Source of the DNA: a virus
DNA: 12,140 nt
UHGV virus genome: UHGV-0102870
Reading direction: 5' to 3' (one strand)
Positions 6,639 to 10,489 of the stretch are shown piece by piece (the first letter of the stretch is position 1; every line of letters starts with the position of its first letter). Position numbers and translations under genes: made by a program. The notes under the pieces were generated by a model that was not told the origin of the DNA, made no database searches, and saw only the letters and a list, made by a program, of their open reading frames with translations.

Positions 6639-6658
6639 AAGACACTGATGAACATTAG

Positions 6659-6955
6659 TTACTTCAACTTAGCGAGATAGCTGATAACCATATCCAGGCT
6701 TACACGATCCTGTCCATCTGAGTACCAAGTATTAGGGGCTGGCTGATTGGCTTTGTACAGGGCATCAATGTTTAGGTTGATGTCAGTCACTTTAAAATCT
6801 CGATCATCAGGGTCAAGCTTTGATGAAATGATCTGACAGGAGCCTTCAGGTACTTTTTTGTGGTAACCAAGCTCATGGTTTTTACAGTAAATCTCGTACT
6901 TGATGGTAGACCCATCGTCCGTTTTCAAAATGAAAGAGTGAATTAAGTGCTTCAT
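6659..6955 (-). CDS. Hypothetical small protein, about 98 aa, AT-rich moron-like gene
   Basis: ATG at 6955-6953 (MKHLIHSF...) with a G-rich SD-like stretch 6 nt upstream; visibly lower G+C and different codon usage than the flanking phage genes; flanked by a candidate promoter and a terminator. No recognisable family. Confidence 0.5.
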   Translation of the reverse strand: MKHLIHSFILKTDDGSTIKYEIYCKNHELGYHKKVPEGSCQIISSKLDPDDRDFKVTDINLNIDALYKANQPAPNTWYSDGQDRVSLDMVISYLAKLK

Positions 6956-6992
6956 GAAAACCCCCACTATTAGTGTGAGTTATCACTTTAGC

Positions 6993-7001
6993 ATTATCAC
7001 A
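6993..7001 (-). promoter_or_regulatory. Candidate extended -10 promoter (TGTGATAAT) for the 6659-6955 ORF
   Basis: Minus-strand TGnGATAAT about 40 nt upstream of the ORF start; no good -35. Sits within two direct TTATCAC repeats (plus 6980-6986 and 6994-7000), next to an imperfect palindrome at 7001-7019. Confidence 0.3.
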
Positions 7002-7037
7002 GGCACTCAGTGAATGCCTGCTGTAATGCCTGGCTAT

Positions 7038-7382
7038 TTATCTCAGGAAGAGGTTGGCTGCATACTCGCCGTCAACGAAGACATCACATTCCTTTGCGTC
7101 ACGGGAAAACTTACAGCGGGCCATAACTTTTTTACCCTTATAGTCGCCGTTGTATACGTTCGTGTAGCTTTGGGCGAAAGCGGCCGAAAGACTTTTATCC
7201 TGGTTAAGGAATGAATCATCAACAACCAGGACATCATTAACCCACAACTTCAGTATTCCGTTTGGCATATTGGCACTAATGAGCATCTGCTCTCCATTGG
7301 GAGAGCGATAAGGTTGCTGTGCAGAATAGTTAGTGCATCCTGCAAGCAGGAGCGCAGAAAGCAAAACGGTAATACGCTTCAT
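7038..7382 (-). CDS. Putative lipoprotein (moron-like), about 114 aa
   Basis: N-terminus MKRITVLLSALLLAGC: basic n-region, hydrophobic core, lipobox L-A-G-C. AGGTGA SD 10 nt before the ATG at 7382; an in-frame ATG at 7388 is too close to the SD. Confidence 0.7.
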   Translation of the reverse strand: MKRITVLLSALLLAGCTNYSAQQPYRSPNGEQMLISANMPNGILKLWVNDVLVVDDSFLNQDKSLSAAFAQSYTNVYNGDYKGKKVMARCKFSRDAKECDVFVDGEYAANLFLR

Positions 7383-7498
7383 GGACATTCATTCACCTAA
7401 GTTAAATTATTGATTGATATGGTTTTAATATCACTAAAAATTAAACTATCAGCGCCTGGTTGTACACATGAAAATTGTTGTTATTTGAAGCTTAGCAA

Positions 7499-8406: not shown

Positions 8407-8710
8407 TCTTCATCCCCGTCAGTCGTTCCCAGAAGTACGTCAGTGCCACGGAGCCCATCGCCCCGCTGATACCAGACGTAACCAGAATCATGTAAAGGCT
8501 CAGCCCACTTTCAACGCTGATCAGTCCACCAATGAGACCGGTAAAGCCGGACACTGCAATTTGTGCCAGCGCGTTGATCCAGCTCCAGGTGGCTTTGTTC
8601 TGCTTAACGTCAATAAGGTATCGGACCAAGCCGCCCCAGCATGACAGAGCAAGGACAATCAGCCATGACACTCCGGCAATGCTTTCTTTATCTTGCATAC
8701 GTTTAGCCAT
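8393..8710 (-). CDS. Holin (three predicted TM segments, class I-like), about 105 aa
   Basis: ATG at 8710-8708 with a strong SD (GGAGGT) just upstream; three hydrophobic segments and a short charged C-terminus; directly upstream of the endolysin. The annotated ORF extension to 8824 uses GTG inside the terminator hairpin and is rejected. Confidence 0.75.
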   Translation of the reverse strand: MAKRMQDKESIAGVSWLIVLALSCWGGLVRYLIDVKQNKATWSWINALAQIAVSGFTGLIGGLISVESGLSLYMILVTSGISGAMGSVALTYFWERLTGMKNANQ

Positions 8711-8768
8711 ATCACCTCCGAAAGAACGGGGTGCTGTTTGTAGTAAGGGATCAGGCCCTCGGGACGAT

Positions 8769-9161
8769 TTAACAAGAAGGCATGTCGATGATGATTCCCG
8801 TGAGCCTGAAAACAAAAAAGCCACCCTTAGGTGGCTTGTGAGTGTACGAAGTCCGGATTCCTTTCTTCGCTTTTAATAGAGCGTTATCTTCTTTCAGGCT
8901 ATCTACTTGGTCTCGCAACCTTTCAAGTTCTTTCTCGGCTCTGTCACGGTCACGCTGAAGACCTTTTATCACTTCGCCTTGGGACGCCTGTACTTCTTTG
9001 AGAATCTGGACGTTAGCTTCGGACTCATCGACAGTGTCGATAATCCTAACAGCAAAAAACGATACGATAGCCATAAGCAGACCAACCATCGTAGTAAGAA
9101 TCCAGACCTTCACACCGGAAGCAGAATTTTCAGAGGCTTCTATAAGAAATTCCTTATGCAT
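8769..9161 (-). CDS. Hypothetical membrane-anchored coiled-coil protein, about 130 aa; possibly a gene remnant
   Basis: ATG at 9161-9159 (MHKEFLIEAS...), weak SD; one N-terminal TM segment (WILTTMVGLLMAIVSFFAV) then heptad-like charged region (RDRDRAEKELERLRDQVDSLKEDNALLKAKKG). The last ~25 codons are encoded by the terminator hairpin and U-tract (KPPKGGFFVF), so the 3' end is doubtful. Confidence 0.4.
   Translation of the reverse strand: MHKEFLIEASENSASGVKVWILTTMVGLLMAIVSFFAVRIIDTVDESEANVQILKEVQASQGEVIKGLQRDRDRAEKELERLRDQVDSLKEDNALLKAKKGIRTSYTHKPPKGGFFVFRLTGIIIDMPSC
8809..8837 (-). terminator. Strong rho-independent terminator (tR'-like) about 100 nt upstream of the holin
   Basis: Minus-strand RNA: perfect 8-bp stem AAGCCACC / GGUGGCUU with 4-nt loop, followed by UUUUUUGUUUU. 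Confidence 0.7.
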
Positions 9162-9697
9162 AGTAAAAATACCCAACGCGCGGCCGCGACGTTAGAACCG
9201 AGGGTATTTTAACTACATAAGGTTATGAAGATCTTCGAAAAAAATGAGATGGTAATCTGTTTGGTTATTTAATGAGCGAAAACAGCCAAAATCCCCATGC
9301 AGGGATGATAAAAAACGTCATTGTGTAAACGACTGCGGGCTGTAATTTATTCAAATTAAATTTCCTTAGTAGGGCTCTATGTGTCCTACAACATCCAACC
9401 TACCGAAAGACATTGATTGATACAAGAGGAAAAACACTACTTTTTATTCAAATTAGGATCGGTTTTGTATCCGATGGCGCGGCATTATACGGAGATAACC
9501 CAAGTTATCAACATGAATTGCCCTCATTTGCACGCAAAATGTGCTGTTTCTTCAAAAGAATGAACAGTTTTGATGGTGAACAGTTATCAACGCTTACGTT
9601 TAAAAAACAAACCATTAACACGCACAATGATTCACAGTTCAAAAAGTTCACATTTATGACCGCGAGATGGTACACAAGTTCAAAGAATTCACTTACT

Positions 9698-9731
9698 AAA
9701 ACAAAAAGCCCAAGGCGTTAACCTCAGGCTT
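9698..9731 (-). terminator. Candidate intrinsic terminator shortly downstream of the putative late promoter
   Basis: Minus-strand RNA: GCCUGAGG / CCUUGGGC stem (8 bp including two G-U pairs), 6-nt loop, followed by UUUUUGUUUU; about 50-80 nt downstream of the predicted start site. Confidence 0.45.
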
Positions 9732-9787
9732 GAAAACTCATTTACTGCCAGTGCATACAACAATGGCACAATATCAGATTTACACGA

Positions 9788-9816
9788 AATATATGCTATT
9801 TAGTTCATTTCTGCAA
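9788..9816 (-). promoter_or_regulatory. Candidate sigma70 late promoter (pR'-like) immediately downstream of the Q-like gene
   Basis: Minus strand: TTGCAG (-35), 17-nt spacer, TATATT (-10); predicted start near 9781. The -35 lies 9 nt past the Q stop codon, mirroring the lambda Q/pR' arrangement. Confidence 0.4.
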
Positions 9817-10489
9817 TACCTTGCTGATAATTTGCTGCCTTTTGTTGTGAACGTGATCGCGAAACATGATGTAGTGACTGTGAGTCCAGCCTCTTATACA
9901 AACTGACCATTGCATCGTAATGTTCCACGTAATTCTGAGACCAGTTTGTTTTATTAACGCCCACCAGCGCAGCCAGATCGCCATACTGATACACATCCCT
10001 CCCAGCTAACTCGTTTTTCACATCCTGCGCCGCCAGCCATATCAACTGACGCAACCGCTCGATAGTCTTTTTCGCCACCCTCTTCCCAGCCAGTTGCTGG
10101 CTGAACTGTTGCCAACCCCACTGAGTGATTTCAACCTGATAGCACCAGCGCACATTCTCGCTGTAGGTCCAGAGCAACCATGCTCTCTGATGGTCTTCCA
10201 GAGACAGGACAGCGCGGCGCCATGATGCGGTGCCGAACTCTACCGGACTCACCAGCGCGATTGACGAGCCCTTGGCGCGTGACTGACTGCCGCTCATCGG
10301 CGGGCCGTCTGGGTTAACCATGCGCTTTTTCTGCGCGTCATAGACTTTCTTCCGCCCCCGGCTGCGCGCCGTCGCGGTGAATTGAGCGTTCTCGGCGAAA
10401 GCGACCAGCTGCCCTTTCGTCGCCCCGCTGAGGTCTGCGGTCGCCACAATGAGCTGCTGACGTACGTATTCCAGTTGCTGACTGTTCAT
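9800..10489 (-). CDS. Putative late-gene antitermination protein (Q-like), 229 aa
   Basis: ATG at 10489-10487 with AGGAAG SD; position is diagnostic (after nin/RusA genes, immediately before promoter, terminator and lysis cassette). Not the lambda Q zinc-finger type; assignment is positional plus vague family recollection. Confidence 0.5.
   Translation of the reverse strand: MNSQQLEYVRQQLIVATADLSGATKGQLVAFAENAQFTATARSRGRKKVYDAQKKRMVNPDGPPMSGSQSRAKGSSIALVSPVEFGTASWRRAVLSLEDHQRAWLLWTYSENVRWCYQVEITQWGWQQFSQQLAGKRVAKKTIERLRQLIWLAAQDVKNELAGRDVYQYGDLAALVGVNKTNWSQNYVEHYDAMVSLYKRLDSQSLHHVSRSRSQQKAANYQQGIAEMN

What the first reader, a model, noticed from the sequence alone, without database searches (positions are those of the whole stretch)
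8769..9161. Membrane-anchored coiled-coil ORF whose 3' end runs through a terminator hairpin
The ORF encodes one N-terminal TM helix followed by a charged heptad-like coiled coil, the same topology as an i-spanin, yet an authentic Rz/Rz1 pair lies downstream. Its last ~25 codons are the terminator stem and U-tract, so a transcript ending at the terminator would lack a stop codon. It may be a remnant truncated at a mosaic junction, a protein made only from antiterminated transcripts, or an uncharacterised membrane protein such as an exclusion or lysis-timing factor.
Basis: partly seen in the sequence, partly recalled or inferred. Interest (0 to 1): 0.55.

Follow-up and report, generated by a model that had tools for sequence, protein, structure and literature searches.

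The report
Phage gene that outruns its terminator
A small membrane-protein gene carried by many enterobacterial prophages is built so that its message normally ends at a transcription terminator before any stop codon is reached, a rare design that should keep the protein off unless the phage's late antiterminator reads through the terminator.

Summary
The ORF lies on the minus strand (9161/9143 to 8769). It encodes one TM helix and one long helix, and it runs through a strong intrinsic terminator (8837-8818 plus T tract). It is not a remnant. It is the second gene of a ~0.71-kb mobile cassette (about 9511-8807) found in lambdoid prophages across Enterobacterales. The cassette always sits in the late operon, in most loci just after the late antiterminator gene. 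It has a conserved sigma-70 promoter, an unannotated 29-codon hydrophobic ORF, a long covarying hairpin that pairs with the big ORF's Shine-Dalgarno, a conserved AUA/AUC start, and the terminator. In all 45 distinct variants (37-100% identity) the frame stays open through the hairpin. The stem changes by compensatory substitutions. The first stop lies at least 10 nt past the stem, in unrelated flanking DNA, at random-looking distances. In this window the tail is a translated holin leader. Three distant relatives have a normal stop before the terminator, so the extension is dispensable for the protein core. Best reading: own-promoter transcripts are non-stop, as for ArfA and BrfA, so their product is tmRNA-tagged. 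Only Q-antiterminated transcripts supply a stop codon. The function is unknown, and nothing here was tested experimentally.

The parts
9706..9731 (-). tR'-like intrinsic terminator between Q (10489-9800) and the cassette. It insulates the cassette from unmodified upstream transcription.
   Evidence: Terminator scan; fold -15.3 kcal/mol, z -2.9. 39 of 50 distinct upstream contexts in related loci have such a terminator within 250 nt of the cassette -35.
9476..9511 (-). Cassette promoter: -35 TTGATA (9511-9506), 16-bp spacer, -10 TATAAT (9489-9484), GC-rich discriminator GCCGCGCC (9483-9476). This is the left edge of the mobile cassette.
   Evidence: 11/12 match to consensus. Both hexamers and the discriminator are conserved in 41 distinct variants while the spacer varies, and also in the most distant variants. 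Similarity to other loci begins sharply here.
9355..9475 (-). 5' leader of the cassette transcript, with a small covarying hairpin (9475-9458) and the small ORF's Shine-Dalgarno CTAAGGA (9369-9363).
   Evidence: Alignments. In WIN the stem is ATCGG/CCGAT, and the two arms change together in other variants (for example ATTGAAG/CTTCAAT in L017). This was read directly and has no statistics.
9265..9354 (-). Unannotated small ORF: TTG start, 29 codons, (M)NKLQPAVVYTMTFFIIPAWGFWLFSLIK. It is a predicted single-helix membrane peptide.
   Evidence: Always 29 codons with a conserved stop; the start is TTG in 21 and ATG in 7 of 28 variants. Column entropy by codon position is 0.48/0.14/0.80. The collection calls it only 'hypothetical protein', and PGAP does not annotate it.
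9137..9230 (-). Long imperfect hairpin between the two ORFs. The anti-SD CCUUAU (9222-9217) pairs with the big ORF's SD AUAAGG (9156-9151). The middle helix is AAAAUACCC/GGGUAUUUU and the apical helix lies at 9193-9175. It may be an RNase III substrate.
   Evidence: MFE -30.2 kcal/mol, z -3.2. The SD region is drawn into the base of the hairpin in most of 28 variants folded singly (in L049 and L079 the pairing covers AUAAGGUG). 78.3% of cells are paired against 35-48% in slid controls; the covariation score is 0.254 against 0.04-0.08; the apical helix is 97% paired with 6 of 7 pairs compensatory. The hairpin is retained in the normal-stop relative L080 (-36.2 kcal/mol, z -4.3). The RNase III role is inference.
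9141..9143 (-). Probable non-canonical start codon AUA of the big ORF, 7 nt after the SD.
   Evidence: The SD, then 6-8 nt, then ATA (ATC in three variants) is conserved. At least 11 variants have no in-frame ATG/GTG/TTG between the upstream stop and this codon; in L029 the stop is 2 codons upstream. Met25 is replaced by Leu in L060, L063 and L065. Coding-type periodicity begins at this codon (N-terminal 13 codons 0.52/0.42/1.00). ATA makes up only 11% of Ile codons in the window's genes. AUA and AUC initiate at 1-2% of AUG in E. coli (bioRxiv 10.1101/063800).
8769..9161 (-). The ORF of the finding (130 aa from ATG 9161; 124 aa from ATA 9143). TM helix 9104-9048, long helix to about 8865, disordered S/T/P-rich linker, hairpin-encoded KPPKGGFF, then a 14-aa tail.
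8807..8837 (-). Intrinsic terminator inside the ORF (stem 8837-8818, T tract 8817-8807). This is the right edge of the cassette.
   Evidence: All 45 variants have one, with at least 6 stem versions. On a model-fitted alignment, 97.1% of cells are paired against 30-64% in slid controls, and 4 of 8 pairs show compensatory changes. Similarity between loci stops right after the T tract.
8714..8806 (-). Holin leader DNA that supplies the ORF's last 12 codons and its TAA (8771-8769). It is not part of the cassette.
   Evidence: Window 8831-8712 matches cassette-less Klebsiella and E. coli phages at about 81%. In those phages the same leader follows a different terminator directly upstream of the holin gene.

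Best explanation
The ORF is a genuine gene. It is the second cistron of an autonomous two-gene 'moron' cassette (window about 9511-8807, minus strand) that recombines between lambdoid prophages. It always lies inside the late operon, co-oriented with it, and in most loci directly after the late antiterminator gene.

Shown from sequence:
- The cassette carries its own conserved sigma-70 promoter and ends at a conserved intrinsic terminator.
- The big ORF has three conserved expression handicaps. Its Shine-Dalgarno is paired inside a long covarying hairpin. It starts at AUA or AUC. Its frame runs through the terminator with no stop codon inside the cassette.

Inferred from established knowledge of intrinsic termination and trans-translation:
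- RNA polymerase starting at the cassette promoter stops in the T tract (about 8810). The few ribosomes that initiate run to the 3' end of a non-stop mRNA.
- tmRNA-SmpB rescues them and the product (ending ...KPPKGGF) is ssrA-tagged and degraded, as for ArfA and BrfA. In a lysogen the 29-aa peptide can therefore be made while the big membrane protein is kept essentially absent. The terminator also shields the lysis genes from the cassette promoter.
- After induction, Q-modified polymerase coming from pR' ignores this terminator. The ORF then acquires whatever stop codon the flanking DNA offers (here TAA 8771-8769 in the holin leader), and a stable protein with an arbitrary disordered tail can accumulate. 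Antitermination thus acts on this gene twice, as RNA read-through and as supply of the stop codon.

Guess:
- The heavy repression suggests that the TM-plus-coiled-coil protein, with or without the 29-aa peptide, acts on the inner membrane late in infection (lysis timing, or exclusion).
- It is not shown whether the non-stop design is selected for or merely tolerated.
For: - Real gene: 31 homologues were found with the single sequence and 70 with the profile, all in Enterobacterales. Only 17 representatives reach E<=1e-10 among 1.84 billion. Third-position-dominated variability holds from the AUA codon through the linker. Stops are excluded specifically from frame 0: 0/31, against 30/31 and 24/31 in the other frames.
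- Cassette: similarity among loci starts at the -35 and stops after the T tract. The promoter is conserved while its spacer varies. GC is 41.5% against 52% for the window. Cassette-less phages have Q, a terminator and the same holin leader. E. coli M172-1 has the same cassette at 99.9% with different lysis genes.
- Context: the cassette always lies in late operons, after Q proteins of several families and before varied genes. 39 of 50 upstream contexts have a terminator.
- Terminator before the stop: all 45 distinct variants show this. The first stop lies 10-133 nt past the stem. Tail lengths have median 18 and mean 19.6 codons, against a random expectation of median 15 and mean 21. The stem covaries while the encoded peptide changes (PPSGGFF, AAPRGGFF, AASGQLF, VADGGLF, AAPRAAF).
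- SD sequestration.
- AUA start.
- Extension dispensable: three relatives end right after the coiled coil, with a stop and then a terminator 13-55 nt later, yet keep the small ORF, the hairpin and ATA. AlphaFold puts residues 100-130 in a disordered tail.
- Precedents: BrfA has a rho-independent terminator inside its coding region and is tagged and degraded unless trans-translation fails (PMC6881298). ArfA is also made from non-stop mRNA (PMC3989581). pR' is constitutively active but terminated during lysogeny (PMC7547250 abstract).
Against: - There are no expression data of any kind. Promoter activity, 3' ends, termination efficiency, translation from AUA and tmRNA tagging are all inferred.
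- Ribosomes translating the latter part of a coding region can repress an intrinsic terminator (PMC4824070), so translated transcripts may read through.
- SD sequestration and the AUA start persist on Q-antiterminated RNA, so late expression may also be low.
- Three relatives with ordinary stops show that the non-stop design is not needed for the protein's function. The short-sequence NJ tree cannot tell one stop loss from two stop gains. A frozen accident followed by spread of a successful cassette is therefore possible.
- The position of pR' in this window (TTGCAG-17-TATATT, 9816-9788) is read by eye only.
- The function of both proteins is unknown. There is no family or defence-system match.
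Confidence: 0.55

Rival explanations
1. Frozen accident without regulatory meaning. A deletion or stop loss once fused the ORF to its terminator, and the cassette then spread. The protein matters only when made from Q-antiterminated late transcripts. The rare non-stop products from own-promoter RNA are mopped up by tmRNA with no selected role.
For: Three relatives have a conventional stop followed by a terminator. The broader weak superfamily consists of 90-118-aa proteins that appear complete, with their own start and stop. Tail lengths look random. The linker is the least constrained coding part (entropy 1.00/0.76/1.37).
Against: No variant among 45, spanning 37-100% identity, has regained a stop in the roughly 20 codons before the T tract, although single mutations could create one and the other two frames are full of stops. 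Non-stop members lie on both sides of the midpoint root of the tree. The trait co-occurs with two other conserved down-regulating devices.
Confidence: 0.2
2. Translation-gated terminator. The point of running the ORF through the hairpin is that a ribosome following the polymerase prevents hairpin formation. Whenever the big ORF's translation is unlocked (hairpin cleaved or melted), transcription from the cassette promoter continues into the downstream late or lysis genes without Q.
For: Terminators in the latter part of coding regions are repressed by translating ribosomes (PMC4824070). The cassette always lies upstream of late genes and is co-oriented with them. The ORF's translation looks switchable through the SD-sequestering hairpin.
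Against: An AUA start (1-2% of AUG) makes tight ribosome-polymerase coupling unlikely. Downstream genes are heterogeneous: holins of five families, a methyltransferase, tRNAs and Rz. Relatives with a stop 13-55 nt before the terminator keep the hairpin and ATA.
Confidence: 0.12
3. Sensor of trans-translation capacity, following ArfA logic but used by a prophage. The membrane protein is made continuously as a non-stop product and destroyed. It accumulates, released by ArfA or ArfB, only when tmRNA is saturated or inactivated, for instance during infection by another phage or translation stress. It then damages the membrane (abortive infection or altruistic lysis).
For: The gene architecture matches ArfA and BrfA. 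The promoter is near-consensus and could be active in lysogens. The location is a moron hot spot next to lysis genes. The product is a membrane protein with a partner peptide.
Against: There is no PADLOC hit and no evidence of toxicity. The strong translational handicaps argue against a constantly produced sentinel. Relatives with normal stops exist.
Confidence: 0.08
4. Remnant or pseudogene truncated at a mosaic junction, or a chance ORF antisense to a real gene.
For: A mosaic junction does lie immediately after the T tract, and the last 12 codons are translated holin leader.
Against: The conserved part has the same end point in all 45 variants. Codon periodicity is on this strand. Stops are excluded specifically from this frame. 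The promoter, small ORF and SD hairpin travel with the gene.
Confidence: 0.02
5. A second, divergent i-spanin (Rz paralogue).
For: There are weak PHROG hits to Rz-like spanins (E 0.003 and 0.09). hhalign against the window's Rz aligns the TM helix and coiled coil (E about 1e-3 pairwise, 22% probability). In Edwardsiella the cassette sits directly upstream of Rz.
Against: There is one helix rather than two helical domains. No embedded or adjacent lipoprotein partner is present. The gene lies upstream of the holin in nearly all loci. An authentic Rz/Rz1 pair is present. The probability is below any membership threshold.
Confidence: 0.03

Closest known systems
BrfA (Bacillus subtilis) and ArfA (E. 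coli): genes expressed from non-stop mRNA
   Same: An intrinsic terminator (BrfA) or a hairpin cleaved by RNase III or causing premature termination (ArfA) lies inside the coding region upstream of the stop codon. The normal product is therefore made from non-stop mRNA and tagged by tmRNA (PMC6881298, PMC3989581). Here too the terminator precedes the stop in every main-clade member.
   Different: ArfA and BrfA are cytoplasmic ribosome-rescue factors, and the logic is feedback on trans-translation itself. They keep a fixed stop a few codons downstream. This gene is a phage membrane protein. Its stop is supplied by arbitrary flanking DNA. It sits in an operon where a dedicated antiterminator can bypass the terminator. 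No sequence similarity exists. Tagging was not tested.
Lambdoid 'morons' (e.g. bor, lom, stx) at the Q-lysis junction
   Same: It is an independent transcription unit with its own promoter and terminator, has a different GC content, is inserted between late-operon genes, and is absent from otherwise related phages (definition from PMC3594210; features shown).
   Different: It has two cistrons with elaborate post-transcriptional locks, and its terminator lies inside the second ORF. The function is unknown.
i-spanin Rz
   Same: It has an N-terminal TM helix followed by a charged coiled coil and is encoded next to lysis genes.
   Different: It has a single helix, no o-spanin partner frame, a different position in the cassette, and no significant homology.
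infC/pcnB-type non-AUG (AUU) initiation and SD-sequestering leader hairpins (e.g. the lambda N-leader RNase III hairpin, from my own knowledge)
   Same: A near-cognate AUH start codon gives low initiation that I expect to be sensitive to IF3, and a long leader hairpin occludes the ribosome-binding site.
   Different: The codon is AUA or AUC rather than AUU. No autoregulatory protein is known, and RNase III cleavage is only inferred.
Type I toxins of about 29 aa (TisB, ZorO; from my own knowledge)
   Same: The small ORF is a 29-aa hydrophobic peptide behind a long structured leader with a weak start codon.
   Different: No antisense or divergent sRNA promoter was found. There is no sequence similarity and no evidence of toxicity. 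The peptide is co-transcribed with a second membrane protein.

Membership tests
Non-stop-regulated genes (ArfA/BrfA type) | A terminator or processing hairpin lies inside the ORF, upstream of the stop codon | tested here: met
   Hairpin 8837-8818 plus T tract lies 36 nt or more before TAA 8771. The same holds in all 45 variants, with the stop at least 10 nt past the stem.
Non-stop-regulated genes (ArfA/BrfA type) | The mRNA actually ends inside the ORF in vivo | not testable with these tools
   This needs Term-seq or 3' RACE.
Non-stop-regulated genes (ArfA/BrfA type) | The product is ssrA-tagged and accumulates when trans-translation is disabled | not testable with these tools
   This needs Western blots in delta-ssrA and ssrA-DD backgrounds.
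Non-stop-regulated genes (ArfA/BrfA type) | The part encoded beyond the truncation point is dispensable for activity | tested here: inconclusive
   Tails are unrelated and of random length. Relatives end right after the coiled coil. The tail is predicted to be disordered. Activity itself is unknown.
Phage moron | Own promoter and own terminator flanking the gene(s) | tested here: met
   The conserved -35, -10 and discriminator and the conserved terminator mark the exact limits of inter-locus similarity. Promoter activity was not measured.
Phage moron | Present or absent among otherwise related phages, with deviant base composition | tested here: met
   Cassette-less phages have the same holin leader. 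The same cassette occurs with different lysis genes. GC is 41.5% against 52%.
i-spanin (Rz, PF03245) | Sequence membership in the family | tested here: not met
   There is no Pfam hit. PHROG Rz-like hits have E 0.003-0.09. hhalign against the window's Rz gives 22% probability.
i-spanin (Rz, PF03245) | Cognate o-spanin lipoprotein gene embedded in, overlapping or adjacent to it | tested here: not met
   No same-strand alternative-frame ORF of 40 aa or more lies within 8769-9161. The upstream small ORF has no lipobox cysteine.
i-spanin (Rz, PF03245) | Two periplasmic helical domains separated by a hinge | tested here: not met
   AlphaFold gives one continuous helix over residues 6-99 (moderate confidence).
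FtsB/DivIC (name given by JGI; faint PF04977 hit in one relative) | Sequence similarity to FtsB | tested here: not met
TraF_2 (PF13729; NCBI name 'conjugal transfer protein TraF') | Pfam hit above the gathering score | tested here: not met
   The window protein has no PF13729 hit at E<=0.01. The precomputed hits are marked weak. The context is phage, not conjugative.
Type I toxin-antitoxin (for the 29-aa ORF) | Antisense or divergent sRNA gene | tested here: inconclusive
   No promoter-like site lies on the opposite strand within 8807-9516 in the consensus scan. A weak promoter cannot be excluded.
Known anti-phage defence systems (PADLOC 2.0) | Profile match | tested here: not met
   Only coiled-coil noise was found (E>=0.006) for the big protein, and nothing for the peptide.

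The most novel reading that the evidence does not exclude
The cassette is a previously unrecognised phage regulatory device in which antitermination supplies the stop codon. Transcripts from its own promoter are non-stop, and their product is destroyed through tmRNA. Transcripts made by Q-modified polymerase are productive. Accumulation of a potentially toxic membrane protein is therefore gated at the protein level by the lysis-lysogeny decision. A stronger variant is that the protein also accumulates whenever trans-translation is overwhelmed, which would make the prophage a sensor of ribosome-rescue capacity.
Probability: 0.35. Interest if true: 0.8.

Novelty: new variant of a known kind. Interest (0 to 1): 0.62.

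Why it matters
The natural genes I know to be deliberately expressed from non-stop mRNA are the ribosome-rescue factors ArfA and BrfA. A conserved, horizontally mobile phage cassette with the same architecture would extend that principle to phage development. It would give a concrete substrate through which tmRNA could influence temperate phages; from my own recollection, some lambda-P22 hybrids and Mu depend on tmRNA for reasons never fully explained. It would also show how a terminator can act as transcription stop, module boundary and protein-level switch at once.

The analysis brings other points to light. There is an unannotated, highly conserved 29-aa membrane peptide, and a probable AUA-initiated gene that gene callers start at the wrong codon. 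Several public annotations of this family ('TraF', 'FtsB', 'CwlO-like', 'Atg14 domain') appear to be wrong. The cassette sits where lambdoid phages carry lysogenic-conversion genes such as stx, so its unknown function may affect host phenotype.

Tried and rejected
- Family and structure searches gave only generic coiled-coil noise. These covered Pfam, PHROGs, NCBIfam and PADLOC for both proteins, a PDB profile search, and hhalign against FtsB and Rz.
- No fold search was run, because AlphaFold returned a single long helix with pLDDT 62 and any match would be meaningless.
- Rfam on 8600-9900 gave nothing below E 0.1. The window has no tRNAs.
- Phage GenBank records do not contain the cassette by DNA or by protein, for either the big ORF or the peptide.
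- The 29-aa peptide is too short for the large protein search. An exact look-up found only 'hypothetical protein'.
- Cassette promoter as pR': rejected. The same promoter follows Q proteins of several unrelated families, and in Edwardsiella it follows an endolysin.
- Hairpin as a conserved C-terminal peptide motif: rejected. The peptide changes while base pairing is kept, and the hairpin is read in at least two frames.
- Frameshift or slippage in the T tract to reach a nearby stop: rejected. No close stop exists in the other frames just downstream in the window (read).
- Met25 as the true start: rejected. It is Leu in three variants, and coding periodicity starts upstream of it.
- The long-range pairing between the discriminator and codons 9-11 proposed by RNAalifold was not pursued. 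It is 5 bp over about 400 nt, and the 5' partner is probably not in the own-promoter transcript.
- The Pas sRNA literature was checked and found unrelated.
Full report
**1. What is at the coordinates**

The ORF is on the minus strand. The ORF listing gives 8769..9176, with an ATG at 9161. The minus-strand gene order is as follows:
- late antiterminator Q (10489-9800, PF06323, 9e-83)
- an intrinsic terminator (9731-9706)
- a 640-nt stretch with no annotated gene
- the ORF
- a LydA-type holin, lysozyme and Rz (PF03245) with an embedded Rz1 frame
- morphogenesis genes

The encoded protein has one strongly hydrophobic segment, residues 20-38, with a Kyte-Doolittle mean of 2.24. It has a heptad-like pattern over residues 40-101. 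AlphaFold models one continuous helix for residues 6-99 followed by a disordered tail.

The hairpin AAGCCACC-TAAG-GGTGGCTT plus T tract (8837-8807) was picked up by the terminator scan and folds at -13.8 kcal/mol, z -2.9. It is encoded by codons 107-118. The stop TAA lies at 8771-8769.

**2. The ORF is a conserved gene, and the hairpin is always inside it**

The large protein collection returned 31 relatives with the single sequence and 70 with a profile. All come from Enterobacterales: Citrobacter, Klebsiella, Raoultella, Enterobacter, Escherichia, Salmonella, Serratia, Yersinia, Edwardsiella, Pantoea, Cronobacter, Kosakonia and Atlantibacter. An exhaustive HMM search of 1.84 billion representatives found only 17 at E<=1e-10, so the family is narrow.

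In the protein alignment, conservation runs up to '...PP[SK]GGFF' and then every sequence goes its own way. I collected 85 loci from genomes, viral contigs and metagenomes and looked at the DNA, with these results:
- In all 45 distinct variants (37-100% identical to the window protein) the frame passes through a terminator hairpin.
- The stem exists in at least six versions kept by compensatory changes: GCCACC/GGTGGC, GGCTGCCC/GGGCGGCT, GGCTGCC/GGCAGC, GGTCGCC/GGCGGCC, ACCACC/GGTGGT and GGCTGCCC/GGGCAGC.
- The first in-frame stop lies 10 to 133 nt beyond the stem.
- On an alignment fitted to a covariance model, 97.1% of stem cells are paired against 30-64% when the partner is slid. Four of eight pairs show double changes. 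This alignment leans towards the modelled structure.
- The peptide encoded by the hairpin changes with it (PPSGGFF, AAPRGGFF, AASGQLF, VADGGLF, AAPRAAF), so selection acts on the RNA structure.
- The reading frame is specifically protected. In the last 69 nt through the T tract, 0 of 31 distinct segments have a stop in frame 0, against 30 of 31 in frame +1 and 24 of 31 in frame +2.
- After the hairpin the tails have median length 18 and mean 19.6 codons. Random sequence of that composition would give median 15 and mean 21. No stop codon belongs to the conserved unit.

**3. The ORF is part of a mobile two-gene cassette**

DNA alignment of diverse loci shows that similarity begins abruptly at a promoter and ends abruptly after the T tract. 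The promoter in the window is TTGATA, a 16-bp spacer, TATAAT and the discriminator GCCGCGCC (9511-9476), an 11/12 match to consensus. Its hexamers and discriminator are conserved in 41 distinct variants while the spacer is free to vary. The most distant members keep it as well.

The unit is about 0.71 kb and has 41.5% GC against 52% for the window.

Its location is consistent. It always lies in the late operon of a lambdoid prophage and is co-oriented with it. It follows antiterminators of several families (PF06323, PF06530, DUF1133-like, and an unassigned 214-223-aa protein). It precedes varied genes: holins of five Pfam families, an N6/N4 methyltransferase and tRNAs. In Edwardsiella it sits between the endolysin and Rz. 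Thirty-nine of 50 distinct upstream contexts have another intrinsic terminator within 250 nt of the cassette -35.

Two comparisons fix the right-hand junction:
- E. coli M172-1 carries the same Q and cassette at 99.9% identity, but with different lysis genes.
- Two phages without the cassette (Klebsiella ST512-KPC3phi13.5 and E. coli vB_EcoS-733R5) have the window's holin leader ('CAGGCTCACGGGAATCATCATCGA...') directly after a different terminator.

The window ORF's last 12 codons and its stop are therefore a fortuitous translation of a holin leader. These properties fit the definition of a moron (PMC3594210).

**4. What else the cassette holds**

(a) A small ORF lies at 9354-9265, behind the Shine-Dalgarno CTAAGGA. 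It encodes (M)NKLQPAVVYTMTFFIIPAWGFWLFSLIK. It is always 29 codons long, starts with TTG in 21 and ATG in 7 of 28 variants, and has column entropy 0.48/0.14/0.80 at codon positions 1/2/3. It is more conserved than the big ORF, is not annotated by PGAP, and has no family.

(b) A long imperfect hairpin (about 9230-9137) lies between the ORFs, with MFE -30.2 kcal/mol and z -3.2. Its base pairs an anti-SD CCUUAU with the big ORF's SD AUAAGG. In most of the 28 variants folded one by one, the SD region is drawn into the base of this hairpin. On the MAFFT alignment, 78.3% of cells are paired against 35-48% in slid controls. The covariation score is 0.254 against 0.04-0.08. The apical helix is 97% paired with six of seven pairs compensatory. 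Its shape, about 30 bp with internal loops, suggests an RNase III substrate, but that is inference.

(c) The start codon is probably AUA. The SD, then 6-8 nt, then ATA is conserved, with ATC in three variants. At least 11 variants have no in-frame ATG, GTG or TTG between the preceding stop and that codon; in L029 the stop is two codons upstream. Met25 is Leu in three variants. Coding periodicity is already present in the 13 codons after ATA (0.52/0.42/1.00). ATA is a minor Ile codon in this phage, 11% of the total. In E. coli, AUA and AUC initiate at 1-2% of AUG (bioRxiv 10.1101/063800). The window's ATG at 9161 overlaps the SD, has no SD of its own and is probably not the start.

**5. Relatives with an ordinary end**

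Three distant members end right after the coiled coil (...ELKGKK* and ...LSALEKR*): Serratia rubidaea L080, metagenomic L081/L082, and L083. They have a stop followed 13-55 nt later by a terminator. They keep the small ORF, the SD-sequestering hairpin and ATA.

Weaker hits form a loose superfamily of 90-118-aa proteins with a TM helix and coiled coil, which appear to be complete proteins with their own start and stop. The functional core is therefore the TM helix plus coiled coil, and the linker and hairpin-encoded extension are dispensable for it.

A neighbour-joining tree on this short core puts the normal-stop forms on two separate long branches, with non-stop forms on both sides of the midpoint root. 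The direction of change is unresolved.

**6. Mechanism**

Shown: the anatomy described above.

Inferred from established knowledge:
- Intrinsic terminators release RNA in the U tract, so own-promoter transcripts lack a stop.
[quoted passage not shown] That is exactly how BrfA (terminator inside the ORF) and ArfA are controlled (PMC6881298, PMC3989581).
- Q-modified polymerase from pR' reads through terminators, and pR' is constitutively active but terminated in lysogens (PMC7547250 abstract).

The model that follows has two states. In the lysogen the small peptide can be expressed, the big protein is blocked three times over, and the terminator protects the lysis genes. After induction, read-through RNA gives the ORF a stop codon and a stable, if weakly translated, product.

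I give this composite 0.55. The weakest links are these:
- There are no expression data.
- Translating ribosomes may weaken the terminator (PMC4824070).
- It is doubtful whether the design is selected or merely tolerated.

The function of the proteins is unknown. No defence, lysis or other family matches. hhalign gives 22% probability against the window's own Rz and 1.7% against FtsB.

**7. Comparison with known systems and novelty**

The expression architecture works like ArfA and BrfA, but the gene is unrelated to them. The stop codon is not fixed. A dedicated antiterminator operates upstream. As a genetic element it is a moron. As a protein it resembles an i-spanin only in topology and fails the membership tests.

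I found no report of a natural phage gene with a conserved terminator-before-stop arrangement in the searchable literature. That library is incomplete. I rate it a new variant of a known kind, with interest 0.62.

Noticed in passing
window 9476-9511 (-): The cassette promoter has the hallmarks of rRNA/tRNA-type promoters: a 16-bp spacer, a perfect TATAAT and a GC-rich discriminator GCCGCGCC that is conserved across the family. It may therefore be growth-rate or ppGpp sensitive. This is inference from promoter rules and was not tested.
   Followed up: partly
window 9788-9816 and 9706-9731 (-): A likely late promoter pR' (TTGCAG-17-TATATT) overlaps the end of Q and is followed about 50-75 nt later by a strong terminator. 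This would give a very short pR' RNA. The promoter was read by eye only.
   Followed up: partly
window 8714-8806 (-): The holin leader is shared at about 81% with cassette-less Klebsiella and E. coli phages. It folds stably (-34 kcal/mol, z -2.5), with the holin Shine-Dalgarno GGAGGUG paired to CACCCCG. This may be a conserved translational control of the holin.
   Followed up: partly
window 6650-7450 (-): A second low-GC island (40-46%) lies just after Rz/Rz1, in the position bor occupies in lambda. It holds a lipoprotein ORF 7388-7038 (MSMKRITVLLSALLLAGC..., lipobox LLAGC) and a 102-aa ORF 6967-6659. Neither has a Pfam hit.
   Followed up: no
window 9476-9483 with 9112-9119 (-): RNAalifold pairs the promoter discriminator (transcribed only on read-through RNA from upstream) with GCUUCCGG in codons 9-11 of the big ORF, with a double compensatory change in the most distant variant. 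The pairing is five base pairs over about 400 nt and may be chance.
   Followed up: no
family members P0002, P0006, P0013, P0029, P0070, P0073: Public names for this family ('conjugal transfer protein TraF', 'cell division protein FtsB', 'CwlO-like', 'Atg14 domain-containing') rest on weak coiled-coil hits and appear to be wrong. Gene callers also pick inconsistent starts: upstream ATGs inside the hairpin, or Met25 inside the TM helix.
   Followed up: yes
L023 (E. coli M172-1, NZ_CP058714.1 4150130-4150850): Q and the cassette are identical to the window at 99.9%, but they are joined to a different lysis module (two holins plus a GH19 endolysin). This is a clean example of module exchange exactly at the terminator.
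   Followed up: yes
P0077-P0093 (exhaustive search hits): A loose superfamily of 90-118-aa proteins with a TM helix and coiled coil shares the motif '..V.FF..R..N.[VI]D' just after the membrane helix, and the proteins appear complete, with their own start and stop. Their genomic contexts were not examined.
   Followed up: no
PDB profile search, NavAb chains: The family profile repeatedly aligns (E 0.05-0.8, not significant) to the S6 pore helix plus C-terminal four-helix coiled coil of bacterial sodium channels. This is an architectural analogy only: a TM helix continuing into an oligomerising coiled coil.
   Followed up: no
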